In this document: in pieces, positions 43,340 through 55,993 of the stretch
Numbering within the stretch: the first letter of the stretch is position 1
How the letters are laid out: each line of letters starts with the position of its first letter
From: Escherichia phage phiLLS
Length of the DNA: 64,000 bases
Strand: one strand, 5' to 3'
Sequence record: NC_047822.1
Notes under the pieces: model-generated
Seen by the model: only the letters and a program-made list of their open reading frames with translations
Told to the model about the DNA's origin: nothing
The model's database searches: none
Program-made: the position numbers and the translations under genes

Positions 43340-44135
43340 AACAGCGAGCCGATTACGCTGAACTTGTCTTAATGTAAGATGCGTCGAGCACTAAGATTCG
43401 TTGAATAGAGTCGGTGGGTTAGTTGTAAAACTAGTACACAGGGGGCGGCAATCCCGGTTAGTGGCTAGAACGTGTAAAATGAGGCGTCTGAAACCTCTCC
43501 CCTAAACTCTTCTCTAATTTATAAATAGTGGGGTGTGGAAATCACTTATGTAGTAACACTGCCGTCCTAGTATAATTGGTATTATCAAGCCGTAACCGGT
43601 GGAAGATGTAGGTTCGAATCCTACGGTCGGTAAGAACTGGATAACTGATGCTTTTAACGTAAAAGCTTCCGAGGTTAGTTGCGCACTGCCTAAACCACGC
43701 GGTAGTTGGTTCCAGACTAACCAACCAGTCTGCTGAATAGTTTTATTACGATTTAACTATGTCCAGGCTAAAGAAGAACTTTAGAAGGTATTCTAGGATA
43801 GTGAAGTTCTTTCTCCATATCGGAGTAGTTTTTCAAGCTATCCACAAAGTGGGAAATGCTGACATGAGAGATGTCACTAATGGTGCACAATAGCACAGGT
43901 AATTCGCGATAACTCCTGTTGAGTAGCAGCAAAAGGCGGGAAGTCATGACCCCAAGCCTAACCGAGTCCTCAATATACCGCAGGACATAACCACTAAGTC
44001 ACCCTGACTTAAACTGGAAAATAATAGACGTTACTGTATTTTGTCTTGAAATACTTAATGAGTGAGACTTATGACTCTCCCGGTATCGTCTGTATTTTTA
44101 AGAGTTTTTTACGAGAGTTCTTAAAAATACTTAAA
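43340..44135 (+). ncRNA. candidate non-coding RNA region (promoter-driven, ORF-free, tRNA-like fragments)
   Basis: ~800 bp with no ORF above ~26 codons; internal T-arm-like GTAGGTTCGAATCCTAC at 43608-43624; several hairpins. Confidence 0.3.
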
Positions 44136-44207
44136 CGGGGTGTAGTCTAAGGGAGAGGCAGGAGTCTTCTAAATTCCTTTATGCAGGTTCGAATCCTGTC
44201 ACCTCGG
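44136..44207 (+). tRNA. tRNA-Arg (anticodon TCT)
   Basis: 7-bp acceptor, D/anticodon/T arms fold; TTCGAAT T-loop; CCA encoded. Confidence 0.8.
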
Positions 44208-44244
44208 CCAATTTTATTAACTGTAACTAAAACAAAGGAAATAT

Positions 44245-46947: not shown

Positions 46948-47145
46948 CTCCTAGTATATAGAAAATGTGTGTCTCTTTGATCACTCATCCATAACATATA
47001 CTTTACACTACCCCAGCGAAAATGTCAAGGGGTCTTTAAAAATTGCCCCTGAATTTTTAGTGGGGTCACAAATTTTGGTCCTCACCACTTATCTGCTATC
47101 CTTAAGTGCCCTATGATTTTCCTCTAAAAAGTTAAAAAAATTTGA

Positions 47146-47174
47146 TTGCTTGAATGCTAAATTCTCTGTATAAT
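47146..47174 (+). promoter_or_regulatory. sigma70-type early promoter
   Basis: TTGCTT-17-TATAAT. Confidence 0.55.
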
Positions 47175-47204
47175 ATATCTATAAATTTGAAAGAGGAACC
47201 AAAT

Positions 47205-47723
47205 ATGAATGTTGATGAGCTAACACAGCACCTCTTATCTAGAGGATTTGATACAGATAAATATCATTGCTGGTTAAGTCCGGAAGGATGGCTAACAGTC
47301 CCGTTGTATGACTTCTCTGGGATGTTGAGGGGCTATCAAACTTATAATCCTTCTGCTCCAAAAGGTCATGGTAAGTGCCCCTTTGAAGCTAAATACTTTA
47401 CTTATTCTACTACCCAGTGTGTATGGGGACTAGAAACTCTCAATGGAGATGAAAAAGTAGTATTGATTGCTGAATCTGTATTTAAGGCAGTTGCGTTACA
47501 TAATGCTGGTTATCCAGCCCTAGCAATGTTGGGTTCTTCTCCAGGAAAAGCGTTATTAAAGCAACTGAAATTACTACCTTTTAAATTGGTAGCTGTCGGA
47601 GATAATGATCCTGCGGGTGAAAAATTTGCTAGAAAATTAAACGGCTTTGTTTCTCCCGTAGATGTGGATGAGATGTCTACCGAAAACTTGAAAAATTTTC
47701 TTGCTATGAAGCTAAATTTCTAA
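47205..47723 (+). CDS. TOPRIM-domain protein (hypothetical)
   Basis: 172 aa; VVLIAESVFKAV ... AVGDNDPAGEKFARKL resembles TOPRIM E...DxD core. Confidence 0.5.
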   Translation: MNVDELTQHLLSRGFDTDKYHCWLSPEGWLTVPLYDFSGMLRGYQTYNPSAPKGHGKCPFEAKYFTYSTTQCVWGLETLNGDEKVVLIAESVFKAVALHNAGYPALAMLGSSPGKALLKQLKLLPFKLVAVGDNDPAGEKFARKLNGFVSPVDVDEMSTENLKNFLAMKLNF

Positions 47724-47744: not shown

Positions 47745-47830
47745 GGAAGAATAGCATAACGGTATTGCAGCAGATTGCTAATCTGTCGGTTTGAAATATA
47801 GCCTTGTGGGTTCGATTCCCGCTTCTTCCG
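47745..47830 (+). tRNA. tRNA-Ser (anticodon GCT), class II
   Basis: perfect acceptor ggaagaa/ttcttcc, long variable arm, TTCGATT T-loop, CCA encoded. Confidence 0.8.
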
Positions 47831-47839
47831 CCAAATTCT

Positions 47840-47914
47840 GGTTCTCAAGCTCATATGGTATGAGCACCCGGCTCATAACCGGAAGGTACGTAGGTTCGAA
47901 TCCTCGGGGAGCCA
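47840..47914 (+). tRNA. tRNA with CAT anticodon (Met/fMet/Ile2)
   Basis: acceptor and D stems pair; anticodon loop CTCATAA; CCA encoded; T-stem imperfect. Confidence 0.65.
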
Positions 47915-47936
47915 CCAAATTAAATAGAGGTCACAA

Positions 47937-48125
47937 ATGGATCTATATATAGTTTATGTTGTGTTTATCCAAGATAGAGAATACCCGGATGAATATAAAA
48001 AAGGGTATAGGTTGGCCAGAGCTACCTCTGAAGCCCAAGCTATGGATAAAGTGGCAGATTATATGATTACGGTAGAAAACATACACTATATCGACTACCT
48101 TGAAGCCTCAAAAGTAATTGACTAA
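47937..48125 (+). CDS. hypothetical protein
   Basis: 62 aa ORF. Confidence 0.4.
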   Translation: MDLYIVYVVFIQDREYPDEYKKGYRLARATSEAQAMDKVADYMITVENIHYIDYLEASKVID

Positions 48126-48131
48126 ACTACA

Positions 48132-48205
48132 CGGGGGTGTAATCGAATTGGCATAGGTACTGGACTTAAAATTCAGGTTTTGTGGGTTCGAATCCCACCA
48201 CCCCT
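48132..48205 (+). tRNA. tRNA with TAA anticodon (Leu-decoding) but short variable arm
   Basis: perfect T-arm GTGGG/CCCAC, anticodon stem CTGGA/TTCAG, loop CTTAAAA; CCA encoded. Confidence 0.6.
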
Positions 48206-48384
48206 ACCAAACTAAGGAAATAAGATGTATAGACATCCACCTCCGCCAACACGTCGTTCTAGAGAAGTTATCCTCATGGAATTGACTAAAAACTTCAAGG
48301 CAACTCTTGAAGATAGAGATCTAGGTACAGATGAAGACGTTGATTTCATTTGTAAACTATTAAAAATGAAGCTGGAGAAACATC

Positions 48385-48591
48385 ATGGCTAACCGTGAAA
48401 TTACTATGCAACGAATCATGACTAAAGGCATGATAGCCGAGGCAGGTATTGAACAAGAAGTAAAAGGCTATTACGAACAGATTAAGACTATTATAGACTC
48501 TGCTAAAAACACCGGAGAAAAAGAGCATGGTGCGGCAATTATGGCTATAACTCTTATTAGTCTAGACTTGGCCGAAGAATCTGGAGTTTAG
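48385..48591 (+). CDS. hypothetical protein
   Basis: 68 aa ORF. Confidence 0.4.
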   Translation: MANREITMQRIMTKGMIAEAGIEQEVKGYYEQIKTIIDSAKNTGEKEHGAAIMAITLISLDLAEESGV

Positions 48592-48621
48592 CTCCTCCAA
48601 ACAGAATTTTTAAAAATGTAC

Positions 48622-48651
48622 TTGCCTTTTGCTTTAAATTTCTGATATAAT
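48622..48651 (+). promoter_or_regulatory. sigma70-type early promoter
   Basis: TTGCCT-18-TATAAT. Confidence 0.5.
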
Positions 48652-48681
48652 AGTTATATAAATTGATGGAGGAGTTAACGA

Positions 48682-48957
48682 ATGCAAAATCGTGTTGTAG
48701 CAACTGGTATTGAAAGTGCAATCTGTAAATCCTGGGAAGGCTGGGAAGGTGAGATTGAATGGCTTTATTTCTATGATGTAGAACTTCTACCGGAAGTTAA
48801 AGCTAAATGTATTGAAGCTGGCATGGCTCCAGATGCAAAAGCTGATATTGATATTTTAATGTCTGAACTTAAAGGTCGTGTAGTTACCGTTAGTAATGAG
48901 GGCGAAGAAGTTTTCGAACTTCCGTTCTCCTTAACTGTCACTCCTAAGTTCGACTAA
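48682..48957 (+). CDS. hypothetical protein
   Basis: 91 aa ORF with GGAGG SD. Confidence 0.5.
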   Translation: MQNRVVATGIESAICKSWEGWEGEIEWLYFYDVELLPEVKAKCIEAGMAPDAKADIDILMSELKGRVVTVSNEGEEVFELPFSLTVTPKFD

Positions 48958-48993
48958 CTAATACAGCACTGAGCAAGTTCTTTAAAATTTGAC

Positions 48994-49022
48994 TTGCTCA
49001 GTGCTATAAAACTTGATATAAT
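48994..49022 (+). promoter_or_regulatory. sigma70-type promoter overlapping a 15-bp inverted repeat
   Basis: TTGCTC-17-TATAAT; IR cagcactgagcaagt / acttgctcagtgctat spans the -35. Confidence 0.5.
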
Positions 49023-49156
49023 AGTTATCTAATTTGGAAAGTTCTTTTTAAGGTAGTTCCTACTTTAGTAGAGTAAATTTTTGGCAGATGGCCCCCACCA
49101 TTTTACCGATAACTCCTAGTCAGTGCGGCAACACTGGCTACCTTAAAGAGAATTTT

Positions 49157-49241
49157 GGGCGTTTATTCCGTAAGTGGTAGCGGAGGGGATTGTAAATCCC
49201 TGGTCATTGCGACTCGAGTGGTTCGACTCCATTAACGCCCA
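49157..49241 (+). tRNA. tRNA-Tyr (anticodon GTA), class II
   Basis: perfect acceptor gggcgtt/aacgccc; anticodon loop TTGTAAA; CCA encoded. Confidence 0.8.
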
Positions 49242-49251
49242 CCAATTTAAT

Positions 49252-49323
49252 GCACCTATCGTCTAGCGGTTAGGACACCACTCTTTCACAGTGGGAACAC
49301 GAGTTCGACCCTCGTTGGGTGTG
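49252..49323 (+). tRNA. tRNA-Glu (anticodon TTC)
   Basis: perfect T and anticodon stems; loop CTTTCAC; CCA encoded. Confidence 0.8.
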
Positions 49324-49335
49324 CCAATTAATAAT

Positions 49336-49403
49336 TGGGGTACGCATAGGTTGCAAATGGGCCTCCAAAACCCATGAAAAGGTTTCGAATACCTTTACCC
49401 CTG
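49336..49403 (+). tRNA. tRNA-like element (possible pseudo-tRNA; 9-nt anticodon-like loop)
   Basis: T-arm AAGGT/ACCTT with TTCGAAT loop and CCA, but 5' acceptor mismatch and no consistent cloverleaf. Confidence 0.3.
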
Positions 49404-49412
49404 CCAAAATTT

Positions 49413-49484
49413 GCACCTTTAGCTGAGATGGATTAGCGCTTGCCTGAAGAGCTTGAGAGGTTCGTTCGATTCGAACAGGGTGCA
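49413..49484 (+). tRNA. tRNA-Phe (anticodon GAA)
   Basis: acceptor, D and T arms pair; anticodon loop CTGAAGA; CCA encoded; two U-U mismatches in anticodon stem. Confidence 0.65.
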
Positions 49485-49504
49485 CCAATTTGAAGGAGCT
49501 GCTG

Positions 49505-49777
49505 ATGCATACTGAAAACTTCTTTATTTACTGCGCGGATAAGTCGCTGAAACGTAGAATTAACAAAGTCTATCATTATCGTGTTAGTCAACAGCCTTAT
49601 GTATATGCTTTTGACGGTGATCACATTCCACTAGAACAATTATCTTGTGATTACATGATATTGAAGAACTTTGACGAGACAAAGATCTCAAGCGTTCATA
49701 ATCGACAGAATCCATTAACGTGGAAATATAAGAAGAAAAAGAAAGGCATCAAATTCTTAAAAAATGTAGTTGCTTAG
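49505..49777 (+). CDS. hypothetical protein
   Basis: 90 aa ORF between tRNA genes. Confidence 0.45.
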   Translation: MHTENFFIYCADKSLKRRINKVYHYRVSQQPYVYAFDGDHIPLEQLSCDYMILKNFDETKISSVHNRQNPLTWKYKKKKKGIKFLKNVVA

Positions 49778-49798
49778 TTTCCAAAAGTTCTGTATAAT
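49770..49798 (+). promoter_or_regulatory. sigma70-type early promoter
   Basis: TTGCTT-17-TATAAT. Confidence 0.5.
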
Positions 49799-49846
49799 AA
49801 TTACATAAATTGAACTGGAGAAGCAACATGACAGAATAAGATAAAC

Positions 49847-49919
49847 CGACCGTTGGCTGAATGGCTTAGGCGAAGGATTGCAAATCCTTTTTATGTGAGT
49901 TCAAATCTCATGCGGTCGT
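49847..49919 (+). tRNA. tRNA-Cys (anticodon GCA)
   Basis: acceptor cgaccgt/gcggtcg, perfect anticodon stem AAGGA/TCCTT; CCA encoded. Confidence 0.8.
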
Positions 49920-49943
49920 CCAAATTACTAAAGGAAAGAAGTA

Positions 49944-50462
49944 GTGCATACAAAAGTTTTTGATAGTTTGGTAAAGAAAGGCATTGTTACTAATAAGCCT
50001 TTCTGTATAACCGCAGAACTAATCCAAAGATTTATGGAAGAATATATAAATCTTTCAGGAACTAATGGTAATACCAAAAAGAATACAAATACTATGTATT
50101 CGAGAAAACTTGCCGCACTTTCCTTTATAAAGTTTAAGCAGGAAAATAAACTTCCTATTTCTGAAGGTTTTGTATACTGTATTAGTAATCCTGCATGGAA
50201 AAATCAGTATAAAATAGGTATGAGTCAAAATCCAAAAGAGAGATTAGCTCAATATCAGACCTATTCCCCCTATAGGGATTATAAATTAGAGCATTGGTCG
50301 TTTTGGTTTGACAAACGAAAAGGTGAAAAACTAATTCACCAGTATTTCAAAGATTTAAAAGAACATGAGTGGTTTAGTATAAATTCTAGGGATCTTAGTA
50401 AATATCTAGAACGTATTAACTCTAGTTCTGACTTATATGGTTCCTTAGCTCTAATTGGTTAG
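49944..50462 (+). CDS. T5orf172-domain (GIY-YIG-like) protein
   Basis: 172 aa; GFVYCISNPAWKNQYKIGMS...EHEWF pattern; GTG start with AAGGAAAG SD; 3' end overlaps next tRNA. Confidence 0.55.
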   Translation: MHTKVFDSLVKKGIVTNKPFCITAELIQRFMEEYINLSGTNGNTKKNTNTMYSRKLAALSFIKFKQENKLPISEGFVYCISNPAWKNQYKIGMSQNPKERLAQYQTYSPYRDYKLEHWSFWFDKRKGEKLIHQYFKDLKEHEWFSINSRDLSKYLERINSSSDLYGSLALIG

Positions 50463-50513
50463 AGCGGCATCTTGTTAAGTTGAGGGTTGCTGGTTCGAAT
50501 CCAGCAGGAACCG
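50439..50513 (+). tRNA. tRNA-Asn (anticodon GTT)
   Basis: perfect acceptor ggttcct/aggaacc, D and T stems; loop TTGTTAA; CCA encoded. Confidence 0.7.
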
Positions 50514-50618
50514 CCAAATTCTGTGTAGAGTTAAGTAAACCGGTAGCCAACCAGCTATCATTGCTGACATCGAATTCAGCCACAGATACCATTTTCATTA
50601 ATAACTGAGGAAATAAGC

Positions 50619-50804
50619 ATGTCCAAGAATGTAATTGCGCAGCTAGAAGTTCATCGTGATAGCACTATCAACAATATTGAAGTTGAAAAGAAATACATCG
50701 AAGAACTTAAACACGATATACTAATAAGTCTCAATCGTCTTAATGTACGAAAAGAGTTTCTTAAAGAACTTAATGCAGCTATTGAAAAACTCAAAGCTGA
50801 GTAA
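50619..50804 (+). CDS. hypothetical protein
   Basis: 61 aa ORF with GAGGAAA SD. Confidence 0.45.
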   Translation: MSKNVIAQLEVHRDSTINNIEVEKKYIEELKHDILISLNRLNVRKEFLKELNAAIEKLKAE

Positions 50805-50813
50805 ATGAATTAT

Positions 50814-50887
50814 GCGACCGGGGCTGGCTTGGTAATGGTACTCCCCTGTCACGGGAGGGAATGTGGGTTCAAATCCCATCGGTCGCG
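50814..50887 (+). tRNA. tRNA-Asp (anticodon GTC)
   Basis: perfect acceptor gcgaccg/cggtcgc and anticodon stem; CCA encoded. Confidence 0.8.
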
Positions 50888-50915
50888 CCAAATTAATTTA
50901 GTATGAGAATATACT

Positions 50916-51263
50916 ATGCGTAATGCCAAAGAAGAGCTGTTACTTGCCTTAAAAAATACTAATTCTGAAGTTAAATGTATTAAAATAGAATTCGGGTATT
51001 ATGGGGATAAAAAAGTTTGGGTATTGCCTTTAGGTTACACAGAAGAAGATATTGAGGATTTTCTTAATAACCTAGACTTTAAATATGACTCTGGGTACGG
51101 TGGACAATTACTTTATGGTAATGTATGGTTTGCCGATGGAACTTGGCTAGAACGTGGAGAATATGATGGTGCTGAGTGGTGGGAATACAAAGCCACACCA
51201 GCAATTCCAGAGGAATGCCGAACAATTAATGGTGAAGTAGATAATACTTTACGGTTAAACTAA
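50916..51263 (+). CDS. hypothetical protein
   Basis: 115 aa ORF. Confidence 0.5.
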   Translation: MRNAKEELLLALKNTNSEVKCIKIEFGYYGDKKVWVLPLGYTEEDIEDFLNNLDFKYDSGYGGQLLYGNVWFADGTWLERGEYDGAEWWEYKATPAIPEECRTINGEVDNTLRLN

Positions 51264-51385
51264 TAAAATTTCAGTGCAGAACACGGAGCTAGCAATTCGG
51301 AAGTGCTGACTCATGATAAGCTGCCTATGTACTTGCGAAGCGGTCGTGTCCAAGACTCGGACTCTTGCACTGAAAACAATCAAAC

Positions 51386-51506
51386 ATTCTAGCGTGGTTG
51401 ATGGGGAAACCAGCTTGGCTAGGGCAGAAGCTCGTTCGATTCGAGTGAAAGAATGGTTCTCGTAAGTCCGCACAAGTGATAACAGGTTCGAGTCCTGTCT
51501 AGAATG
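51386..51506 (+). ncRNA. tRNA-like structured RNA (~120 nt) with perfect 7-bp acceptor-type closing helix and T-arm
   Basis: attctag (51386-92) pairs with ctagaat (51499-505); T-arm ACAGG-TTCGAGT-CCTGT; internal hairpins; no CCA. Confidence 0.35.
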
Positions 51507-51692
51507 ACATATTCTGGAGATTCTATGGATTATGAAGAGTTAGATAAATTAGCTGATACATTATCAGAACTATCTGATAATGTAGTAATAAAAGATTCTA
51601 GGATAGACAGTTTTATTGCTGATTATCGTAATGGTATTATCTCTAGGCAAGAACTAGTAGATAAAACTTATCAATATTTAAAGGGAAAGTAA
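51504..51692 (+). CDS. hypothetical protein
   Basis: 62 aa ORF. Confidence 0.4.
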   Translation: MTYSGDSMDYEELDKLADTLSELSDNVVIKDSRIDSFIADYRNGIISRQELVDKTYQYLKGK

Positions 51693-51712
51693 ACGAAAGT
51701 TTACTTATTATG

Positions 51713-51810
51713 TAGGTTCCGATAGATCGGCGGGTCTATTCTGGCATTTAAGAGAAGTCTCGCAAACTTCTTTGTCAGCCGTGGGGTTGGTAGCCTCCAG
51801 GTGGCCTACA
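51713..51810 (+). ncRNA. tRNA-like element (~98 nt) without canonical T-loop
   Basis: terminal helix gtaggtt/ggcctac; internal anticodon-like hairpin AGAAGT-CTCGCAA-ACTTCT. Confidence 0.3.
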
Positions 51811-51837
51811 CAATAAGTAAATTTATTAAAAATTCAT

Positions 51838-51866
51838 TTGCTATTCTGCTTTATTATCTGTATAAT
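51838..51866 (+). promoter_or_regulatory. sigma70-type early promoter
   Basis: AAAAATTCATTTGCTA-17-TATAAT. Confidence 0.6.
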
Positions 51867-51899
51867 ATATTTTATAAAGTGAAGAGAAGGAAAGCAAAA

Positions 51900-52058
51900 T
51901 GAAACACAAGATAGCTCAAGTTTTTATGGCATTATGGTGTATGCCAATAGCTATAACAGCATTTAATCTAGATACTTTTACTATAGAAGAAAAATGTATC
52001 GGATTAGTTAGCGGTTTTAGTATGCTGGGCTTATCTTTGCTGTGGTTAAAGAAATAAT
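51900..52058 (+). CDS. hypothetical small membrane protein
   Basis: 52 aa ORF (MKHKIAQVFMALWCMPIAITAF...) with AAGGAAAG SD; below track cutoff. Confidence 0.4.
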
Positions 52059-52061
52059 ATT

Positions 52062-52136
52062 CTCCGTGTAGCTCAGTTTGGCCAGAGCGTTTCGTTTGGG
52101 GCGATAGGGTCGGGGGTTCAAATCCTCCCACGGAGA
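52062..52136 (+). tRNA. tRNA-Pro (anticodon TGG)
   Basis: perfect acceptor ctccgtg/cacggag, D stem GCTC/GAGC, T-loop TTCAAAT; CCA encoded. Confidence 0.75.
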
Positions 52137-52145
52137 CCAAACAAT

Positions 52146-52220
52146 TGCGGGTTAGATCTCTGGTAGAGATCGCTAGTCTCATAAGCTAGAAAGAGGTAGG
52201 TTCGATTCCTGCACCCGCTT
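52146..52220 (+). tRNA. tRNA with CAT anticodon (Met/fMet/Ile2); 1:72 mismatch
   Basis: anticodon stem CTAGT/GCTAG, loop CTCATAA; CCA encoded. Confidence 0.7.
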
Positions 52221-52243
52221 CCATTTTAATAGAGGATTTCGAA

Positions 52244-52411
52244 ATGAAAGTATTTCGATTAGTAGTAAGTGACAAACGTTTAGGTAATAATACCTCAAGA
52301 TCCTTACTTGCACATTATGGAAAAGATGAAAAAGAAGTAATGGCGGAGTTTGGGATTAATCATTCTTACTTAAAAGTCCATTCTATTAAAGAAGTATACA
52401 ATGGTTACTAA
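52244..52411 (+). CDS. hypothetical small protein
   Basis: 55 aa ORF with AGAGGA SD between tRNA genes. Confidence 0.4.
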   Translation: MKVFRLVVSDKRLGNNTSRSLLAHYGKDEKEVMAEFGINHSYLKVHSIKEVYNGY

Positions 52412-52412
52412 T

Positions 52413-52488
52413 AGATCGCTAGCTCAATAGGTTTAGTAGCATCCGACTTTTAATCGGAAGGTTCTGGGTTCGAGTCCCAGGCGATCTA
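52413..52488 (+). tRNA. tRNA-Lys (anticodon TTT)
   Basis: perfect acceptor, anticodon stem TCCGA/TCGGA, T-arm CTGGG/CCCAG; CCA encoded. Confidence 0.85.
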
Positions 52489-52509
52489 CCAATTTCAAGA
52501 AAAACGCAG

Positions 52510-52538
52510 TTGCTTGATGCTTAATTTCTTGTTATAAT
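52510..52538 (+). promoter_or_regulatory. sigma70-type early promoter preceding ORF-free region
   Basis: TTGCTT-17-TATAAT. Confidence 0.55.
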
Positions 52539-52559
52539 ATTTATATAAATTGATGCGAA

Positions 52560-52870
52560 AATAGCTGCCTAGATACCAGGTGTATGACGTCTACACTAGC
52601 AGAGCTACCGAAAAAGAGATCCTCAGGATAAACGTCGTAGCAAAATTAGTCTGGTATCCATCAATTTAGTTCACTAAGGTATTAGCTCGACCTAGGACTG
52701 GCTGCCAAAAAGCACGATCCCTACGATTCGGGAGAAGTTCTAGATTAGTCCACTAGATTCAGCGGCAACTGAATAGTGTATTGGGTTTGCGAGATGACGC
52801 AGTTCCTTCCGCTCGAAGCGAAGGTGCTGTAGTTACGCCGAGCTAATAGCCTTAGTAAACTAAAGAATTT
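52560..52870 (+). ncRNA. candidate structured non-coding RNA (~310 nt, ORF-free, downstream of promoter)
   Basis: long imperfect hairpin 52562-52608; further hairpins near 52800-52825; no ORF, no canonical tRNA fold. Confidence 0.3.
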
Positions 52871-52871
52871 G

Positions 52872-52947
52872 GGGGAATGGGTCTGCATGGAGTGGACACC
52901 TCGCTTGCACCGAGGACATCAGAACGGTTCGATTCCGTTATTCTCCA
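52872..52947 (+). tRNA. tRNA-Ala (anticodon TGC)
   Basis: perfect anticodon stem CCTCG/CGAGG, loop CTTGCAC, T-arm AACGG/CCGTT; 3' end CAA rather than CCA. Confidence 0.65.
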
Positions 52948-52955
52948 CAAAATAC

Positions 52956-53029
52956 GCGTGATTGATGGAATTGGCATACATACCGTCCTTAGAAGTCGGG
53001 TTTTGAGGGTTCGAATCCCTTGTCACGCA
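52956..53029 (+). tRNA. tRNA with TAG anticodon (Leu-decoding) but short variable arm
   Basis: acceptor gcgtgat/gtcacgc, T-arm GAGGG/CCCTT; loop CTTAGAA; CCA encoded. Confidence 0.55.
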
Positions 53030-53144
53030 CCAAATTTGATGGTCAGAGTAAATTAAACCTACTATCTCGGTTGAGCTGTTTTAATGGGTTCGAATCCCAG
53101 CGGGGCGTAACTGCCTGGTGTGATAGAGGCATCATCTTATTATT

Positions 53145-53232
53145 GGAAGAGCAAATCGAATTGGCGACGAAAACCGCTTGGAAAGTGGCTGACTGGTAAA
53201 ACGGCTTGAGAGTTCAAATCTCTCCTCTTCCG
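53145..53232 (+). tRNA. tRNA-Ser (anticodon GGA), class II
   Basis: perfect acceptor ggaagag/ctcttcc, T-arm GAGAG/CTCTC, long variable region; CCA encoded; anticodon assignment tentative. Confidence 0.65.
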
Positions 53233-53247
53233 CCAAACAATTTATAT

Positions 53248-53339
53248 GGTAGGTCAATCCAACGGCTGGCGCTGGACTCCGACTTGAAATCGGTTGATCG
53301 TAGTGATACGGTGTAAGGGTTCGATCCCCTTACCTACCT
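53248..53339 (+). tRNA. tRNA-Ser (anticodon TGA), class II
   Basis: perfect acceptor ggtaggt/acctacc, T-arm AAGGG/CCCTT, loop CTTGAAA; CCA encoded. Confidence 0.7.
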
Positions 53340-53342
53340 CCA

Positions 53343-53478
53343 AATCTTGGAATATGCCGGAATTGGTAGACGGGACTGCCGAATAGGTTTACTAGGAACA
53401 TCCACTCCTAGAAATATACCTTAAAAGCGGTTGAGTTAAATGGTCTAACTCATGAAGGTTCAAATCCTTCTATTCCTT
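53343..53478 (+). ncRNA. tRNA-like element / possible pseudo-tRNA with insertion
   Basis: canonical T-arm GAAGG-TTCAAAT-CCTTC and acceptor-like 3' strand; upstream D-loop consensus AATTGGTAGAC; no consistent cloverleaf. Confidence 0.3.
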
Positions 53479-53707
53479 GATACATCAATGGCTCAAAGTG
53501 TAACGGTGCTATTTGATGCACTTGGAAAGACTTTCCCGACATGCGTTCGGGGGTAAGCTTCTGAGGCTAGAATAGAAGAGTTTCTGGGAGCCGCCACAAT
53601 CGAAAATTCGTACTCGTCTTGAGCTGCGTGCAATAGGAGATAACTTGATTAGTATTCTAGAACATGCTAATTGAGGATGGTTTCGCTAACCCTGCGAGTT
53701 TTCAATT

Positions 53708-53781
53708 GTGGCTATATCATAATTGGTTAATGATCCTGATTGTGAATCAGGCCTATGTGGATTCGAATTCCACTAGCCACC
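53708..53781 (+). tRNA. tRNA-His (anticodon GTG)
   Basis: perfect acceptor gtggcta/tagccac, anticodon stem CCTGA/TCAGG; CCA encoded. Confidence 0.8.
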
Positions 53782-53809
53782 CCAAATTAATTTAAATAGG
53801 AAATAAAAT

Positions 53810-54004
53810 ATGGCTGATTTCTGCAAACAATGCTCCATTGATATGTGGGGCAGAGATACTGGTGACTTAGCTGGTCTGATTACAGAAGCCGAAGTCAAAG
53901 AAGGTTATGGTGCAGTTGTGGTTTGCGAAGGATGCGGAGTCATTCGAGTAGACCATAAAGGTAAGCGCCTTGAAGAACCTGAGCCAGTTACTCTATTTCC
54001 ATAG
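53810..54004 (+). CDS. hypothetical Cys-rich small protein (zinc-ribbon-like)
   Basis: 64 aa; CKQC...CEGC pairs. Confidence 0.45.
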   Translation: MADFCKQCSIDMWGRDTGDLAGLITEAEVKEGYGAVVVCEGCGVIRVDHKGKRLEEPEPVTLFP

Positions 54005-54017
54005 AGTAAAGAATTAT

Positions 54018-54090
54018 TGGGATGTAGATCAATTGGCAGATCGTCGGCCTCTGACTCCGAAGGTTCCACGTTCGATCCGTGGCATCCCAG
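54018..54090 (+). tRNA. tRNA-Gln (anticodon CTG)
   Basis: perfect acceptor tgggatg/catccca, T-arm CCACG/CGTGG; CCA encoded. Confidence 0.75.
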
Positions 54091-54099
54091 CCAAATTAT

Positions 54100-54172
54100 T
54101 GGAGAGTAGTGTAACGGTTAGCACAACGGCCTTTGACTCCGTTAATGGTAGGTTCGATTCCTCCTTCTCCAG
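54100..54172 (+). tRNA. tRNA-Gln (anticodon TTG)
   Basis: acceptor tggagag/ttctcca, loop CTTTGAC; CCA encoded. Confidence 0.7.
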
Positions 54173-54192
54173 CCAACTTAAAAGGTAAAAAT

Positions 54193-54753
54193 GTGAAGGT
54201 AATACCGGAATTTCCATTATATAGTATATCTGAGGATGGTAAAGTTTGGTCAACTTATTCTAATAAGTTTTTATCCTCTTATATTAACAATGATGGGTAT
54301 CCCTGTTATAAATTACATAAGAAGGGGGTTCAGTATACTCAACTAATACATAGATTATTAGCTAGAGTATACAAAGATCTGCCTTCTCTGGATTCTGACC
54401 TAGAGGTAGATCACAAAGATACTAATATTCTTAACTATGCACTAGAGAATATACAAGTTCTCAGTAAAGAGGATCACAGAAAGAAAACCTTACTAGATAA
54501 TGGGTATACTGCGTATAACAAGGTATGTCCAACTTGCTCAGGATACAAAGATCCCGGAGCTATTCAGTGTAAGGGATGTTCTTCGCTATCCCAAGTAAAG
54601 AATAAAGATGTTACTGCTGAGCAAATAGAATACTGGGTGTCCAAGTATTCATGGGTTAGAGCAGCCAAAGAATTTGGATACTCAGATAATGGACTTCGTA
54701 AAAGGTATAAATCCCTTACTGGTAAAGATCCAAAAACAATAAAACGCGGTTAG
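54193..54753 (+). CDS. HNH homing endonuclease inserted in tRNA cluster
   Basis: HNH motif EVDHKDTNILNYALENIQVL and C-terminal Zn-finger-like CPTCSG...CKGC; probable GTG start at 54193 after tRNA-Gln. Confidence 0.7.
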   Translation: MKVIPEFPLYSISEDGKVWSTYSNKFLSSYINNDGYPCYKLHKKGVQYTQLIHRLLARVYKDLPSLDSDLEVDHKDTNILNYALENIQVLSKEDHRKKTLLDNGYTAYNKVCPTCSGYKDPGAIQCKGCSSLSQVKNKDVTAEQIEYWVSKYSWVRAAKEFGYSDNGLRKRYKSLTGKDPKTIKRG

Positions 54754-54814
54754 CCTCATGGTGGGGACTCAGCCTTCCAAGCTGATGGAGAGGGTTCGAT
54801 TCCCTCTAGCCGCT
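54746..54814 (+). tRNA. tRNA-Gly (anticodon TCC), compact
   Basis: acceptor gcggtta/tagccgc, perfect anticodon stem TCAGC/GCTGA, T-arm GAGGG/CCCTC; CCA encoded; overlaps stop of HNH ORF. Confidence 0.65.
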
Positions 54815-54833
54815 CCAACTTTAAGGAAACACT

Positions 54834-55085
54834 ATGCACGTTTTTGAGTTTCGTAATAAAAGTACTGATAAGCGAGTTATCATTATTGGAGAAACATATC
54901 GAGCATATGAACAAACTGACGGCTCTGTTATCTTGAATGATGAGAAAGGAGGTTTTAGCTTTTATCCAGAAGAACCTTATGAAGAGTTTCGAAAACAATT
55001 TAACCTAGACTGGAGAAAGCATTTAAACACTGTTGCTCCATCTGTAGTATTGCCAACTACCAGTACTGTACCCTCTAATGGCTGA
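54834..55085 (+). CDS. hypothetical protein
   Basis: 83 aa ORF. Confidence 0.45.
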   Translation: MHVFEFRNKSTDKRVIIIGETYRAYEQTDGSVILNDEKGGFSFYPEEPYEEFRKQFNLDWRKHLNTVAPSVVLPTTSTVPSNG

Positions 55086-55242
55086 CAACCTAAAAGTAAA
55101 GATTGATAAACAAAAGAAACGTGTAGAAGTAGAGATTGGCGAAGAACGTGTTGCCTTTACTTTCGAGTTTCTTCAGCAGTTGGCAATGACAGTAATGTCA
55201 GATAAATCCCCTGTATTTGAAAAAGAAATCCCGTTGAAATAA
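55078..55242 (+). CDS. hypothetical small protein
   Basis: 54 aa ORF (MADNLKVKIDKQ...); below track cutoff. Confidence 0.35.
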   Translation: MADNLKVKIDKQKKRVEVEIGEERVAFTFEFLQQLAMTVMSDKSPVFEKEIPLK

Positions 55243-55252
55243 CGGGATTATC

Positions 55253-55324
55253 GCTCCTAAAGCATTGCTGGCGATGCAGTTGCCTTGTAAGCATCTGAAC
55301 CGGGTTCGATTCCTGGTGGGAGCA
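55253..55324 (+). tRNA. tRNA-Thr (anticodon TGT)
   Basis: acceptor gctccta/tgggagc, D stem GCAT/ATGC, loop CTTGTAA; CCA encoded. Confidence 0.75.
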
Positions 55325-55342
55325 CCAAATTTAAAAATTCAT

Positions 55343-55371
55343 TTGCTTTCTCCCTTATTTATTGCTATAAT
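55343..55371 (+). promoter_or_regulatory. sigma70-type early promoter
   Basis: AAAAATTCATTTGCTT-17-TATAAT. Confidence 0.6.
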
Positions 55372-55401
55372 ATTTATATAAATTAATGAGAGGGAAACCA
55401 A

Positions 55402-55692
55402 ATGAAACGTTATCTTTCTGTAATATTCCAAACTGGTGGCCAAAGATACACCTATGAATTTCCATCCTCTTGGAAAATCAAAGAGGGTGATCAAGTAGTA
55501 GTGCTAACACCGCGTGAAGGATATAAAGTAGTAACGGTTAAACAAGTATTTCCAAAAGATCATGAACCAGCTAAAGGCATCCGCTATAAGATGATTCATG
55601 GTGTGGTTCGTCAAGTACCACGAACTGAGGTAGAAGTAGATAAGACTGGAGAAACTAAATTCCATTATACTTCTTACTTAGACAGTGTGTGA
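55402..55692 (+). CDS. hypothetical protein
   Basis: 96 aa ORF with GAGGGAAA SD. Confidence 0.5.
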   Translation: MKRYLSVIFQTGGQRYTYEFPSSWKIKEGDQVVVLTPREGYKVVTVKQVFPKDHEPAKGIRYKMIHGVVRQVPRTEVEVDKTGETKFHYTSYLDSV

Positions 55693-55707
55693 TGTAAATA
55701 TTTTAAT

Positions 55708-55781
55708 GCTTCGGTAGCTTAGCGATCTAAAGCACTCGGCCGATAACCGAGAGATCGGGGGTTTAAATCCCTCCCGGAGTA
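55708..55781 (+). tRNA. tRNA-Ile (anticodon GAT) with non-canonical C33 and TTTAAAT T-loop
   Basis: perfect D stem GCTT/AAGC and anticodon stem CTCGG/CCGAG; CCA encoded. Confidence 0.65.
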
Positions 55782-55870
55782 CCAAATTTAGGAATTAAGA
55801 CTATGCGTCCAGGAAAGTTTAAAAAAGCTAATTGGTCTAAAGAGTATAAAGAATACTTACTTAGTCTAGT

Positions 55871-55943
55871 AAAACATAACAGTTAGTTGGCAGAGTGGTT
55901 ATGCACCTCCTTCATACGGAGCGACTACAGTGGTTCAAATCCA
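55871..55943 (+). tRNA. tRNA with CAT anticodon (third CAT tRNA; Met/fMet/Ile2)
   Basis: perfect acceptor agttagt/actaact and T-arm AGTGG/CCACT; loop TTCATAC; CCA encoded. Confidence 0.7.
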
Positions 55944-55993
55944 CTACTAACTACCATTAAAATAGCTAGAGATAGCTAAATTTAGGAGCAGCT

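What the first reader, a model, noticed from the sequence alone, without database searches (positions are those of the whole stretch)
47745..55943. Large tRNA cluster with three CAT-anticodon tRNAs and atypical members
About 24 tRNA genes on the plus strand are interspersed with small ORFs, an HNH endonuclease and promoters. Three carry CAT anticodons, consistent with elongator Met, initiator and lysidine-Ile2 species. Two tRNAs with Leu-type anticodons (TAA at 48132-48205, TAG at 52956-53029) appear to have short variable arms, which is unusual for tRNA-Leu. The tRNA at 55708-55781 has C33 and a TTTAAAT T-loop. I found no Val or Trp tRNA by eye. Anticodons were assigned manually and need software confirmation.
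Basis: seen in the sequence. Interest (0 to 1): 0.45.

Follow-up and report, generated by a model that had tools for sequence, protein, structure and literature searches.

The report
T5-type phage tRNA gene cluster
This is the well-known tRNA-rich region of a T5-like coliphage, and its one under-described feature is two leucine tRNAs that lack the long extra arm every bacterial leucine tRNA is supposed to have.

Summary
Software and comparison with the curated phage T5 record give 24 plus-strand tRNA genes in 47745-55956, plus tRNA-Arg at 44136.

**Known features**
- The window is a mosaic T5-like phage (Tequintavirus), about 96% identical to database relatives.
- Almost every element is already named in the T5 reference: the three CAU tRNAs (Ile2, fMet, Met), nine early promoters, HNH homing endonucleases and eight stable RNAs.

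- A tRNA-Trp(CCA) is present at 49336-49406. It is atypical, and ARAGORN and Rfam's gathering threshold both miss it.
- tRNA-Val really is absent.
- C33 in tRNA-Ile(GAU) is a rare allele, exact in 5 of 238 phage records. The odd T loop is a family trait with a compensating D-loop change.

**The two Leu-anticodon tRNAs**
- Both are real class I tRNAs with a 5-nt variable loop.
- They keep the E. coli LeuRS identity features checked: A73, A14, A15-U48, G18G19 and a class-II-style D arm.
- T5 itself has a long-arm Leu(UAG) in the same slot.
- The short-arm design recurs in hundreds of phage records and in phage or array-borne tRNA clusters across phyla, where Ser and Tyr keep their long arms.
- CUA, read by one of them, is 7.5-fold enriched in the phage.
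- I found no paper describing this family.

Overall the finding is ordinary and already known, with one modestly interesting detail.

The parts
43505..44135 (+). Homologue of T5 'RNAX' stable RNA, directly upstream of tRNA-Arg. It contains the degenerate tRNA-like Rfam hit at 43561-43632.
   Evidence: BLAST to the T5 rnaX feature, 91-98% identity. Rfam tRNA 35.5 bits.
44136..44210 (+). tRNA-Arg(TCT)
   Evidence: ARAGORN. Rfam 49.3 bits. 100% identical to T5 tRNAR.
47154..47723 (+). Toprim-domain ORF, annotated 'DNA primase' in relatives. It is preceded by promoter P15a (47125-47198).
   Evidence: Pfam Toprim_2. T5 annotation. Promoter mapping.
47745..47833 (+). tRNA-Ser(GCT), long variable arm, G73
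   Evidence: 98.9% identical to T5 tRNAS3.
47840..47917 (+). tRNA with CAT anticodon, equal to T5 tRNAI2 (lysidine-type Ile2). It has a weak T stem and A8.
   Evidence: Rfam 40.3 bits. ARAGORN only at ps90. 97.4% identical to T5 tRNAI2(CAU).
48133..48209 (+). Class I (short-arm) tRNA-Leu(TAA). It has a 3-bp D stem, D loop GAATTGGCATA, variable loop GTTTT, A73 and an encoded CCA.
   Evidence: (57.4 bits). Identical copies in about 290 phage records. T5 has the HNH gene hegA in this region and no Leu(TAA).
49157..49244 (+). tRNA-Tyr(GTA), long arm. This allele differs from T5's (85% identity).
49252..49326 (+). tRNA-Glu(TTC)
49336..49406 (+). Atypical tRNA-Trp(CCA). It has a U1-U72 mismatch, a reduced D arm (3 bp with a 5-nt loop), C31-A39, U53-A61 and G73.
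   Evidence: 98.6% identical to T5 tRNAW(CCA). The MFE fold is a cloverleaf. Rfam gives 23.1 bits, below the 29-bit gathering score. Missed by ARAGORN.
49413..49487 (+). tRNA-Phe(GAA)
49847..49922 (+). tRNA-Cys(GCA)
49944..50462 (+). T5orf172/MUG113 (GIY-YIG-like) ORF. Its 3' end overlaps the start of tRNA-Asn.
   Evidence: Pfam MUG113 5.6e-16 and T5orf172 2.6e-12.
50439..50516 (+). tRNA-Asn(GTT)
50519..50591 (+). Homologue of T5 'RNA3' (putative tRNA-like RNA)
   Evidence: 100% identical to T5 rna3.
50814..50890 (+). tRNA-Asp(GTC)
51385..51812 (+). Homologues of T5 stable RNAs RNA2 (51385-51509, tRNA-like) and RNAIV (51710-51812). An ORF of at least 40 aa (51504-51692) lies between them.
   Evidence: 96% and 99% identity to the T5 features. 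ORF.
52062..52139 (+). tRNA-Pro(TGG)
52146..52223 (+). tRNA with CAT anticodon, equal to T5 initiator tRNAfM. It has an unpaired U1-U72 and A11:U24, but no GGG:CCC in the anticodon stem.
   Evidence: 100% identical to T5 tRNAfM(CAU).
52413..52491 (+). tRNA-Lys(TTT). This allele differs from T5's. It is not followed by tRNA-Val as in T5.
   Evidence: (60.9 bits).
52680..52851 (+). Homologue of T5 stable RNA 'RNA2H', downstream of promoter P13b (52500-52555)
   Evidence: 98.3% identity.
52872..52948 (+). tRNA-Ala(TGC) with G3:U70 and an unusually large D loop. The CCA is not fully encoded.
   Evidence: ARAGORN. Rfam 36.3 bits.
52956..53032 (+). Class I (short-arm) tRNA-Leu(TAG). It has a 3-bp D stem, D loop GAATTGGCATA, variable loop GTTTT, A73, A37 and an encoded CCA.
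   Evidence: (47.5 bits). T5 has an 85-nt long-arm Leu(UAG) in the same slot after tRNA-Ala.
53145..53235 (+). tRNA-Ser(GGA), long arm, G73, irregular D arm
   Evidence: ARAGORN ps90. Cloverleaf-like MFE. Same architecture as T5 tRNAS2(GGA), with a compensatory D-stem change. Not found by Rfam.
53248..53342 (+). tRNA-Ser(TGA), long arm, U73
   Evidence: Rfam tRNA-Sec model 38.3 bits, with the TGA anticodon aligned. MFE cloverleaf. T5 tRNAS1(UGA) occupies the same slot.
53346..53706 (+). Homologues of T5 stable RNAs RNA1 (tRNA-like, 53346-53489), RNAI (53490-53596) and RNAIII (53602-53706)
   Evidence: 95-100% identity to the T5 features.
53708..53784 (+). tRNA-His(GTG)
54018..54093 (+). tRNA-Gln(CTG)
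54100..54175 (+). tRNA-Gln(TTG)
54193..54753 (+). HNH homing-endonuclease ORF inserted between tRNA-Gln(TTG) and tRNA-Gly. Its end overlaps the first 8 nt of tRNA-Gly.
   Evidence: Pfam HNH_3 and NUMOD4 hits at E = 7.5e-05 and 9.3e-04, each just below its Pfam cut-off. 100/184 residues identical to T5 hegD. The relative mar004NP2 has Gln and Gly adjacent.
54746..54817 (+). tRNA-Gly(TCC), U73, irregular D arm
   Evidence: (39.6 bits).
55253..55327 (+). tRNA-Thr(TGT)
55708..55784 (+). tRNA-Ile(GAT) with C33 (a rare allele), T loop TTTAAAT and D loop AGCGATCTA
   Evidence: (59.9 bits).
55881..55956 (+). tRNA with CAT anticodon, equal to T5 elongator tRNAM
   Evidence: 100% identical to T5 tRNAM(CAU).

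Best explanation
The region is the tRNA-rich early region of a T5-like phage (Demerecviridae, Tequintavirus).

**Layout.** Strong T5-type early promoters drive short operons. These operons mix 25 tRNA genes, most with an encoded CCA, with small ORFs, homing endonucleases and several stable RNAs of unknown function.

**Function of the tRNAs.** They are charged by host synthetases and do two things.
- They top up decoding of codons that the AT-rich phage uses far more than E. coli does: CUA, AUA, AGA, GGA, CCA and UUA.
- As shown experimentally for T5-group tRNA-Tyr and tRNA-Lys, they replace host tRNAs destroyed by tRNA-targeting defence systems.

**The two short-arm tRNAs.** These are most likely genuine leucine acceptors, which is an inference. 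Bacterial LeuRS reads A73 and the D-loop/T-loop elbow (A14, A15-U48, G18G19). [quoted passage not shown] A tRNA-Leu can therefore lose its arm and remain a substrate, whereas tRNA-Ser and tRNA-Tyr cannot. These two genes belong to a widespread phage-borne family of arm-less tRNA-Leu. That family replaced the long-arm Leu(UAG) allele of T5 by cassette exchange.

**Other points.**
- C33 in tRNA-Ile is a rare point allele.
- The cryptic Trp is the T5 tRNAW.
- Val has been lost.
For: **Identity of the region (shown).**
- The region is 95-97% identical over 85-90% of its length to many Tequintavirus genomes.
- Every T5-annotated tRNA, stable RNA and promoter maps in the same order, except V, L1 and hegA/C/D.

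**Function of the region (from the literature).**
- The roughly 8-kb tRNA-rich region is dispensable.
- Its tRNA-Tyr rescues T5-like phages from retron-Eco7.
- That paper also cites the report that a T5 tRNA-Lys variant evades PARIS (PMC11555353; PMC11464382 is listed).
- T5 record notes say many of these tRNAs work as amber suppressors once the anticodon is changed.

**Codon fit.** Rates per 1000 codons in 58 phage ORFs against a 49-kb E. coli sample:
- CUA 19.2 against 2.6, the largest ratio at 7.5-fold
- AUA 2.8-fold
- AGA 2.6-fold
- GGA 2.6-fold
- CCA 2.0-fold
- UUA 1.9-fold

**Leu identity of the short-arm tRNAs.**
- Both have A73, U8, A14, A15, U48, G18G19 and a T loop UUCGAAU.
- Both have a 3-bp D stem closing an 11-nt loop, GAAUUGGCAUA. 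E. coli has (G/A)AAU(U/C)GGUAGA.
- These features match the E. coli LeuRS identity set, which excludes the anticodon and the long arm. Arm-less tRNA-Leu variants stay chargeable (PMC9976931; PMC6614811 introduction).

**Evidence for a real, evolving family.**
- Homologues occur in 453 and 567 phage records, including Felixounavirus, Vequintavirinae, Schitoviridae and Vibrio/Aeromonas phages.
- A D-loop/anticodon/T-loop pattern hit at least 120 IMG/VR contigs and at least 120 bacterial genome or MAG contigs. ARAGORN called 216 of the 247 matches as 74-78-nt tRNA-Leu.
- In 131 unique sequences, A73, U8, G13 and U48 are invariant although they lay outside the search pattern. Stems show on average 4.3 Watson-Crick or wobble pair types per position.
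- In those arrays Ser is 167 long to 2 short and Tyr is 80 long to 2 short. Leu genes not selected by the pattern are 131 short to 69 long.

**Allelic replacement.** T5 has an 85-nt long-arm Leu(UAG) at the same slot. The T5-type allele is in 54 records and the short-arm allele in about 160.
Against: - No aminoacylation or expression data exist for these two tRNAs in anything I could read.
- E. coli LeuRS failed to charge the only studied bacterial class I tRNA-Leu, S. coelicolor CAA (PMC6614811). Acceptance of an arm-less tRNA is therefore not automatic.
- tRNA-Leu(UAG) here has A37 where E. coli leuW has G37.
- The covariation set was filtered on ARAGORN-perfect cloverleaves, so its 100% pairing is partly circular.
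- The codon comparison uses a 49-kb E. coli sample rich in ribosomal genes, not the whole genome.
- The defence-evasion role is demonstrated for Tyr and Lys only.
Confidence: 0.85

Rival explanations
1. The short-arm tRNAs with UAA and UAG anticodons are charged with an amino acid other than leucine. The phage would then recode or mistranslate UUR and CUN codons.
For: - The hallmark long arm of bacterial tRNA-Leu is missing.
- Some GenBank pipelines label the identical gene 'tRNA-OTHER'.
- E. coli LeuRS does not charge the S. coelicolor class I tRNA-Leu.
Against: - A73 is invariant in 131/131 family members, and the Leu-specific D arm and the A15-U48 pair are kept.
- There is no G3:U70, no long arm for SerRS, and no other synthetase uses UAA or UAG anticodons as identity elements (established identity rules, PMC9976931).
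- CUA and UUA make up 47% of Leu codons in this phage.
- Close relatives decode the same genes without these tRNAs. T5 has a long-arm Leu(UAG) and no Leu(UAA). Deletion mutants lacking the whole tRNA region are viable (PMC11555353).
Confidence: 0.04
2. The arm-less design is an adaptation for escaping host nucleases or other factors that recognise class II tRNAs through the long variable arm. It is not a neutral loss.
For: - Phage tRNAs are known to evade tRNA-targeting defences. The T5-group cases are tRNA-Tyr against retron-Eco7 and tRNA-Lys against PARIS.
- Eukaryotic antiviral Schlafen nucleases selectively cut type II tRNAs (titles and abstracts).
- The short-arm allele outnumbers the long-arm allele in T5-like phages, about 160 records to 54.
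- The anticodon loop also differs from the host's: CUUAGAA against UUUAGGU.
Against: - Nothing I read reports a bacterial defence that targets tRNA-Leu or class II tRNAs through the arm.
- Ser and Tyr in the same arrays keep their arms. This is explained more simply by synthetase requirements.
- This reading is compatible with the best explanation rather than exclusive of it.
Confidence: 0.15
3. The atypical members (Trp at 49336, the CAT tRNA at 47840, Ser-GGA, the short-arm Leu genes) are decaying pseudogenes or tRNA-like stable RNAs with no role in decoding.
For: - Trp scores 23.1 bits, below Rfam's threshold, and has 1:72 and 31:39 mismatches and a truncated D arm.
- 47840 has only 3 good T-stem pairs and A8.
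- The region also carries several tRNA-like stable RNAs of unknown function.
- T5 notes say the Trp and Ser-GGA derivatives do not act as amber suppressors.
Against: - The Trp sequence is 95-100% conserved in 116 phage records.
- The window's copy restores a G4-C69 pair relative to T5.
- Failure to suppress is expected for tRNAs whose synthetase reads the anticodon, as TrpRS does.
- T5's I2 is reported to work as a suppressor.
- The short-arm Leu genes score 47-57 bits and show extensive compensatory change across phage families.
Confidence: 0.1

Closest known systems
Phage T5 tRNA gene region (NC_005859 / AY543070 / AY734508, curated annotation)
   Same: - Same gene order and the same nine early promoters.
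- 97-100% identical: tRNAs R, S3, I2, W, F, C, N, D, fM, H, I1 and M. tRNA T is 96% identical.
- 95-100% identical: stable RNAs rna3, rna2, rnaIV, rna2H, rna1, rnaI and rnaIII. rnaX is 91-98% identical.
- HNH homing endonucleases lie among the tRNA genes.
   Different: - The window lacks tRNA-Val.
- It carries different alleles of Tyr, Glu, Pro, Lys, Ala, Ser-GGA, Ser-TGA, Gln and Gly.
- It has a class I Leu(UAG) where T5 has a class II one.
- It has an extra class I Leu(UAA) where T5 has hegA.
- Its HNH gene sits at a different site, between Gln and Gly.
E. coli class II tRNA-Leu (leuZ, leuW, leuX, leuU, leuQPV)
   Same: Shared features are A73, U8, a 3-bp D stem, an 11-nt D loop RAAUYGGYAKA with A14, A15 and G18G19, a U at the last variable position, a T loop UUCRART and the anticodons UAA/UAG.
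   Different: - The variable region is 5 nt instead of 13-15 nt, so there is no extra stem-loop.
- The D loop ends in AUA rather than AGA.
- Leu(UAG) has C32, A37 and A38 where leuW has U32, G37 and U38.
- There is no blastn match in 5,426 complete E. coli genomes.
Streptomyces coelicolor class I tRNA-Leu(CAA) (PMC6614811)
   Same: It is a bacterial-system tRNA-Leu with a short variable loop that coexists with class II tRNA-Leu and a single LeuRS.
   Different: - It is chromosomal rather than phage-borne.
- Its charging depends on features of the Streptomyces LeuRS, and E. coli LeuRS does not charge it.
- In that system deleting G18/G19 is tolerated. In the phage family the Leu-type D loop is invariant.
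Minimal arm-less E. coli tRNA-Leu constructs (Larkin et al. 2002, as summarised in PMC9976931)
   Same: They show that E. coli LeuRS charges tRNA-Leu lacking the long variable arm, provided A73 and the D-loop/T-loop tertiary contacts are intact. This is the same logic proposed here.
   Different: They are engineered molecules, not natural genes. The original paper was not readable here.
Phage and bacterial tRNA arrays (for example PMC4758250; mycobacterial array units, PMC12803027)
   Same: They are dense clusters of 10-25 tRNA genes on mobile DNA with a proposed anti-defence role. The short-arm Leu family sits in such arrays.
   Different: Those papers do not mention the class I nature of the array Leu tRNAs.

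Membership tests
T5-like (Tequintavirus) tRNA-rich region | Nucleotide similarity and synteny with T5-group genomes across the region | tested here: met
   95-97% identity over 85-90% of 9.5-14 kb. 606-623 matching phage records, mostly Salmonella and Escherichia Demerecviridae.
T5-like (Tequintavirus) tRNA-rich region | Same ordered set of tRNA genes, stable RNAs and early promoters as the curated T5 record | tested here: met
   13 T5 tRNAs map at 96-100% identity in the same order, and others are present as divergent alleles. 8 stable RNAs and 9 promoters also map.
tRNA (Rfam RF00005 / cloverleaf) | Score at or above the 29-bit gathering threshold with a full-length model match | tested here: met
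   21 of the 25 listed tRNA genes pass (20, plus Ala at 36.3 bits). Tyr and Ser-TGA match the related tRNA-Sec model below its threshold. Trp scores 23.1 bits. Ser-GGA is not found.
Bacterial class II tRNA-Leu | Long variable arm (extra stem-loop of more than 10 nt) | tested here: not met
   The variable loop is GTTTT (5 nt) in both genes. E. coli Leu genes have 13-15 nt.
Bacterial class II tRNA-Leu | LeuRS identity set: A73, A14, A15-U48, G18G19 in a Leu-type D loop, and intact G18-U55, G19-C56 and U54-A58 partners | tested here: met
   All are present in both genes. A73, U48 and G13 are invariant in 131 family members. The identity set is taken from PMC9976931 and PMC6614811.
Bacterial class II tRNA-Leu | Leucylation by the host LeuRS | not testable with these tools
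   This needs an in vitro charging assay or an in vivo suppressor assay.
Class I (type I) tRNA-Leu, as in mitochondria and S. coelicolor | Leu anticodon, a 4-5-nt variable loop and A73 | tested here: met
Bacterial initiator tRNA-fMet (gene at 52146) | Unpaired 1:72, G2-C71, C3-G70, G4-C69 and R11:Y24 | tested here: met
   U1-U72 is unpaired. The acceptor is TGCGGGT/ACCCGCT, and A11:U24 is present. Determinants are from PMC9976931. The discriminator is U, not A.
Bacterial initiator tRNA-fMet (gene at 52146) | Three consecutive G-C pairs (29-31:39-41) in the anticodon stem (from general knowledge) | tested here: not met
   The anticodon stem is CTAGT/GCTAG. The T5 curators nevertheless annotate the identical gene as initiator tRNA.
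Lysidine-type tRNA-Ile2 (gene at 47840) | CAU anticodon plus IleRS determinants (A73, U12-A23, C29-G41, A37, C4-G69) | tested here: inconclusive
   CAU, A73, U12-A23, C29-G41 and A37A38 are present. Position 4:69 is U-A, not C-G. Lysidine formation cannot be tested. T5 annotates this gene as tRNAI2.
HNH homing endonuclease (ORF 54193-54753) | HNH nuclease motif together with a NUMOD-type DNA-binding module, in a free-standing gene between conserved genes | tested here: met
   HNH_3 (E 7.5e-5; 22.7 bits, just under the 24.8-bit cut-off) and NUMOD4 (19.8 bits, cut-off 23.4). 54% identity to T5 hegD. The ORF is absent from the same site in mar004NP2.

The most novel reading that the evidence does not exclude
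Arm-less (class I) tRNA-Leu may be a large, coherent family that has never been formally described.

- It is carried by phage and mobile tRNA arrays across many bacterial phyla.
- Leu is the one class II tRNA that loses its arm, because bacterial LeuRS ignores the arm.
- The T5-group genes at 48133 and 52956 are its coliphage representatives.
- They offer a natural substrate for testing arm-independent leucylation by E. coli LeuRS.
- A further, more speculative possibility is that losing the arm also shields these tRNAs from host factors that recognise class II tRNAs.
Probability: 0.35. Interest if true: 0.55.

Novelty: already known. Interest (0 to 1): 0.33.

Why it matters
As a tRNA cluster this adds nothing new. 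It is one more mosaic version of the T5 tRNA region, whose role in codon supply and in defeating tRNA-cleaving defences is already established.

The useful by-products are practical.

- **Detection gaps.** Standard tRNA finders miss up to four of the 25 genes here (Ile2, Trp, Ser-GGA, Ser-TGA), so automated phage annotations under-count tRNAs.
- **A textbook exception.** The rule that bacterial-system tRNA-Leu is always class II is broken routinely by phage-borne genes. These genes keep the LeuRS identity set apart from the arm.
- **An experimental opening.** If the short-arm tRNAs are shown to be leucylated, they would be natural minimal substrates for studying LeuRS recognition. They would also make convenient compact orthogonal scaffolds.

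Tried and rejected
- **Sequence-only origin test.** I aligned the two Leu tRNAs globally against E. coli, T5 and the window's other tRNAs to infer their origin. Identities of 65-76% did not separate Leu from Ser, His or Arg. I used structure-segmented comparison instead.
- **Promoter scans.** A hand-written promoter consensus gave 0 matches because the spacing was wrong. The generic sigma-70 scan was not enriched over shuffles, 30 found against 34 expected. Mapping the T5-annotated promoters by BLAST settled the question.
- **Single-sequence folding.** MFE folding of the two Leu tRNAs and Ile-GAT does not return a cloverleaf. This is common for tRNAs, so I did not count it as evidence against them.
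- **53350-53480.** I considered this a disrupted class II tRNA-Leu. It is the T5 'RNA1' tRNA-like stable RNA.
- **43561-43632.** I considered this Rfam hit (35.5 bits) an extra tRNA. It lies inside T5 'RNAX', has a poor anticodon stem and no CCA, so I did not count it.
- **Literature.** Seven searches found no description of phage class I tRNA-Leu. Two searches failed on term length. Larkin et al. 2002 could not be read.
- **Host genomes.** The short-arm Leu(UAG) has no blastn match in 5,426 complete E. coli genomes.
- **tRNAscan-SE.** Its isotype models were not available.

Full report
**1. What is there**

ARAGORN at default settings tRNA genes in the window, all on the plus strand. Twenty lie between 47745 and 55956, and tRNA-Arg(TCT) lies at 44136-44210.

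Other evidence adds four genes.
- Rfam's tRNA model also gives 21 hits at gathering score. These add a CAT-anticodon tRNA at 47840-47914 (40.3 bits). They also add a degenerate tRNA-like element at 43561-43632, which I did not count.
- A permissive Rfam scan adds Ala (36.3 bits) and the long-arm genes at 49157 and 53248 through the tRNA-Sec model.
- ARAGORN at a lowered threshold adds Ser(GGA) at 53145-53235 and Ser(TGA).
- An atypical Trp(CCA) at 49336-49406 comes from comparison with T5 (see section 5).

With these, the interval holds 24 tRNA genes.

**2. Where it comes from**

The region is 95-97% identical over 85-90% of its length to many Tequintavirus genomes from Salmonella and Escherichia. 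No record is identical, so this is a mosaic member of the T5 group.

The hand-curated T5 reference names almost everything. BLAST of each T5 feature against the window maps them in the same order.
- **tRNAs:** R, S3, I2, W, F, C, N, D, fM, H, T, I1 and M at 96-100% identity.
- **Stable RNAs:** rnaX, rna3, rna2, rnaIV, rna2H, rna1, rnaI and rnaIII.
- **Promoters:** P16-17, P15a, P15b, P15c, P14a, P14b, P13a, P13b and P11.

The ORFs among the tRNAs are these.
- A Toprim protein at 47154-47723.
- A T5orf172/MUG113 protein at 49944-50462.
- An HNH_3/NUMOD4 endonuclease at 54193-54753. It is 54% identical to T5 hegD. It is inserted between Gln(TTG) and Gly(TCC), which are adjacent in phage mar004NP2.

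**3. The three CAT tRNAs**

T5 annotates the identical or near-identical genes as tRNAI2(CAU), initiator tRNAfM(CAU) and elongator tRNAM(CAU).
- **52146:** it has an unpaired U1-U72, G2-C71, C3-G70, G4-C69 and A11:U24. These are the formyltransferase determinants listed in PMC9976931. It lacks the three G-C pairs in the anticodon stem that I recall as an initiator hallmark.
- **47840:** it has A73, U12-A23, C29-G41 and A37A38, which are Ile determinants. Position 4:69 is U-A, and the T stem is weak.

**4. tRNA-Ile(GAT) at 55708**

C33 and the TTTAAAT T loop are both real.

T5 and S131 have U33 in an otherwise identical tRNA. The exact C33 allele occurs in 5 of 238 matching records, which represent three independent phages. 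It is therefore a rare but genuine allele.

The T loop UUUAAAU and the D loop AGCGAUCUA are shared with T5. Read as G18-A19, the D loop pairs A19 with U56. This looks like a compensated replacement of the usual G19-C56 elbow pair, which is an inference. The T5 record notes that this tRNA works as an amber suppressor after an anticodon change.

**5. Val and Trp**

Val is absent. T5 has tRNA-Val(UAC) immediately after tRNA-Lys. The window goes straight from Lys to promoter P13b.

Trp is present but atypical.
- 49336-49406 is 98.6% identical to T5 tRNAW(CCA), and it is conserved at 95-100% in 116 records.
- Its MFE fold is a cloverleaf.
- It has a U1-U72 mismatch, a 3-bp D stem with a 5-nt loop, and C31-A39.
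- It scores only 23.1 bits on Rfam.
- ARAGORN and most GenBank annotations miss it.

**6. The short-arm Leu tRNAs**

Both genes score well, at 57.4 and 47.5 bits. ARAGORN and Infernal align the anticodons TAA and TAG identically. Each has a 5-nt variable loop, GTTTT.

I fetched the five E. coli K-12 tRNA-Leu species and segmented all sequences by structure.
- The phage genes keep U8.
- They keep a 3-bp D stem and an 11-nt D loop, GAAUUGGCAUA. E. coli has (G/A)AAU(U/C)GGUAGA.
- They keep U at the last variable position, the partner of A15.
- They keep a standard T loop and A73.

This is the E. coli LeuRS identity set as reviewed in PMC9976931 and PMC6614811. The set comprises A73, A14, A15-U48, G18G19, A20a and the elbow pairs. 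It excludes the anticodon and the long arm. Arm-less constructs remain chargeable.

T5 itself has an 85-nt long-arm Leu(UAG) in the same slot after tRNA-Ala, and it has no Leu(UAA). Among phage records the T5-type long-arm allele is in 54 and the window's short-arm allele in about 160.

**7. How widespread the design is**

Homologues occur in these groups.
- Felixounavirus
- Vequintavirinae
- Schitoviridae
- Vibrio Demerecviridae
- An Aeromonas phage

I searched for a pattern that fixes only part of the D loop, YTTAR in the anticodon loop, TTCRA in the T loop and class I spacing.
- It hit at least 120 IMG/VR contigs and at least 120 bacterial genome or MAG contigs. Both scans were capped.
- ARAGORN of the 247 matches as 74-78-nt tRNA-Leu.
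- Most lie in dense arrays of 10 or more tRNAs.
- Among 131 unique sequences with the dominant cloverleaf, A73, U8, G13 and U48 are invariant although unconstrained by the pattern. Stem positions show on average 4.3 pair types. The 100% pairing figure is partly circular, because ARAGORN selected those sequences.
- In the same loci Ser is long in 167 of 169 genes and Tyr in 80 of 82. Leu genes not selected by the pattern are short in 131 of 200.

Loss of the arm is therefore specific to Leu. The simplest reading is that LeuRS tolerates the loss, whereas SerRS and bacterial TyrRS use the long arm. The point about SerRS and TyrRS comes from my own knowledge of those systems, and the reading itself is an inference.

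The short-arm Leu(UAG) has no match in 5,426 complete E. coli genomes.

**8. Function**

*Codon usage.* I compared 58 phage ORFs in the window with a 49-kb E. coli sample.
- CUA is used at 19.2 per 1000 codons in the phage against 2.6 in E. coli. This is the largest ratio among codons matched by the phage tRNAs, at 7.5-fold.
- AUA (2.8-fold), AGA (2.6), GGA (2.6), CCA (2.0) and UUA (1.9) follow.

The tRNA set therefore fits codon supplementation.

*Defence evasion.* Published work shows three things (PMC11555353; PMC11464382).
- The T5-group tRNA-rich region is dispensable.
- Its tRNA-Tyr defeats retron-Eco7.
- A T5 tRNA-Lys variant defeats PARIS.

*Recoding.* This rival is very unlikely. T5 and region-deletion mutants translate the same codons without these tRNAs.

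**9. Novelty**

The cluster, its gene content and the CAT assignments are already known. The short-arm Leu genes are present and labelled tRNA-Leu, or occasionally tRNA-OTHER, in hundreds of records.

I found no paper that describes them as class I or discusses the family. I made seven searches of about 8 million open-access papers. A 2019 paper treats class I tRNA-Leu in a bacterium as exceptional. The older T5 literature from subscription journals is not in the library, so prior description cannot be excluded.

**10. Verdict**

The cluster is an ordinary, known phage feature, with one modestly interesting and testable detail.

Noticed in passing
43505-44135, 50519-50591, 51385-51509, 51710-51812, 52680-52851, 53346-53706: Eight non-coding stretches match T5 'stable RNAs with unknown functions': RNAX, RNA3, RNA2, RNAIV, RNA2H, RNA1, RNAI and RNAIII. 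Several are tRNA-like. RNA1 begins with a class-II-Leu-like D arm (GCCGGAATTGGTAGACGGG) and ends with a T arm and acceptor strand. RNAX contains a 35.5-bit Rfam tRNA hit.
   Followed up: partly
52872-53032; L006:63-223: The Ala(TGC) and short-arm Leu(TAG) pair forms a cassette. Similar sequences in the same order occur in a Vequintavirinae phage (Cronobacter phage EspYZU14), followed there by Val(TAC). This suggests exchange of tRNA cassettes between unrelated phage families.
   Followed up: partly
54193-54817: The HNH ORF is inserted between tRNA-Gln(TTG) and tRNA-Gly(TCC), and its last codons overlap the first 8 nt of tRNA-Gly. The Gly gene shares its acceptor and T arm with T5 tRNAG1 but has a different D arm and anticodon stem.
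   Followed up: partly
52956-53032: The phage Leu(UAG) anticodon loop is CUUAGAA (C32, A37, A38), whereas E. coli leuW has UUUAGGU with G37. A37 is the majority state in the family (102 of 131). The consequences for m1G37-dependent reading-frame maintenance were not examined.
   Followed up: no
53248-53342: tRNA-Ser(TGA) has discriminator U73, as does T5 tRNAS1, rather than the G73 seen in the other two Ser tRNAs of the window.
   Followed up: no
L139, L168, L171, L172, L175, L205, L229, L233, L241, L250: Many tRNA arrays in bacterial genome or MAG contigs (mostly Gammaproteobacteria and Burkholderiales) carry an ARAGORN call 'Ile(tat)' of 91-96 nt. This is a long-arm-sized tRNA with a UAU anticodon, which is odd for tRNA-Ile.
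   Followed up: no
L142, L158, L231, L244: Some arrays that carry short-arm Leu also carry tRNAs with CTA (amber) or TCA (opal) anticodons of normal size. They may be suppressor tRNAs of stop-codon-recoding phages.
   Followed up: no
L189 (Candidatus Nardonella chromosome), L217 (Candidatus Uabimicrobium amorphum chromosome): Short-arm Leu genes also occur in cellular chromosomes. There is a 76-nt Leu(tag) in a 200-kb endosymbiont genome. A planctomycete chromosome has a cluster of five 74-nt Leu genes (tag, caa, taa, aag, taa) interleaved with long-arm Tyr genes.
   Followed up: no
56231-56599: A small ORF with a glycine-radical domain (GrcA-like spare part for pyruvate formate-lyase) lies just downstream of the tRNA region, as in T5 relatives.
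   Followed up: no
47840-47917 vs L018:5588-5665: The window's Ile2-type tRNA differs from T5's by a compensatory pair in the anticodon stem: G31-C39 in the window and A31-U39 in T5. This supports selection on the fold despite the tRNA's weak T stem.
   Followed up: partly
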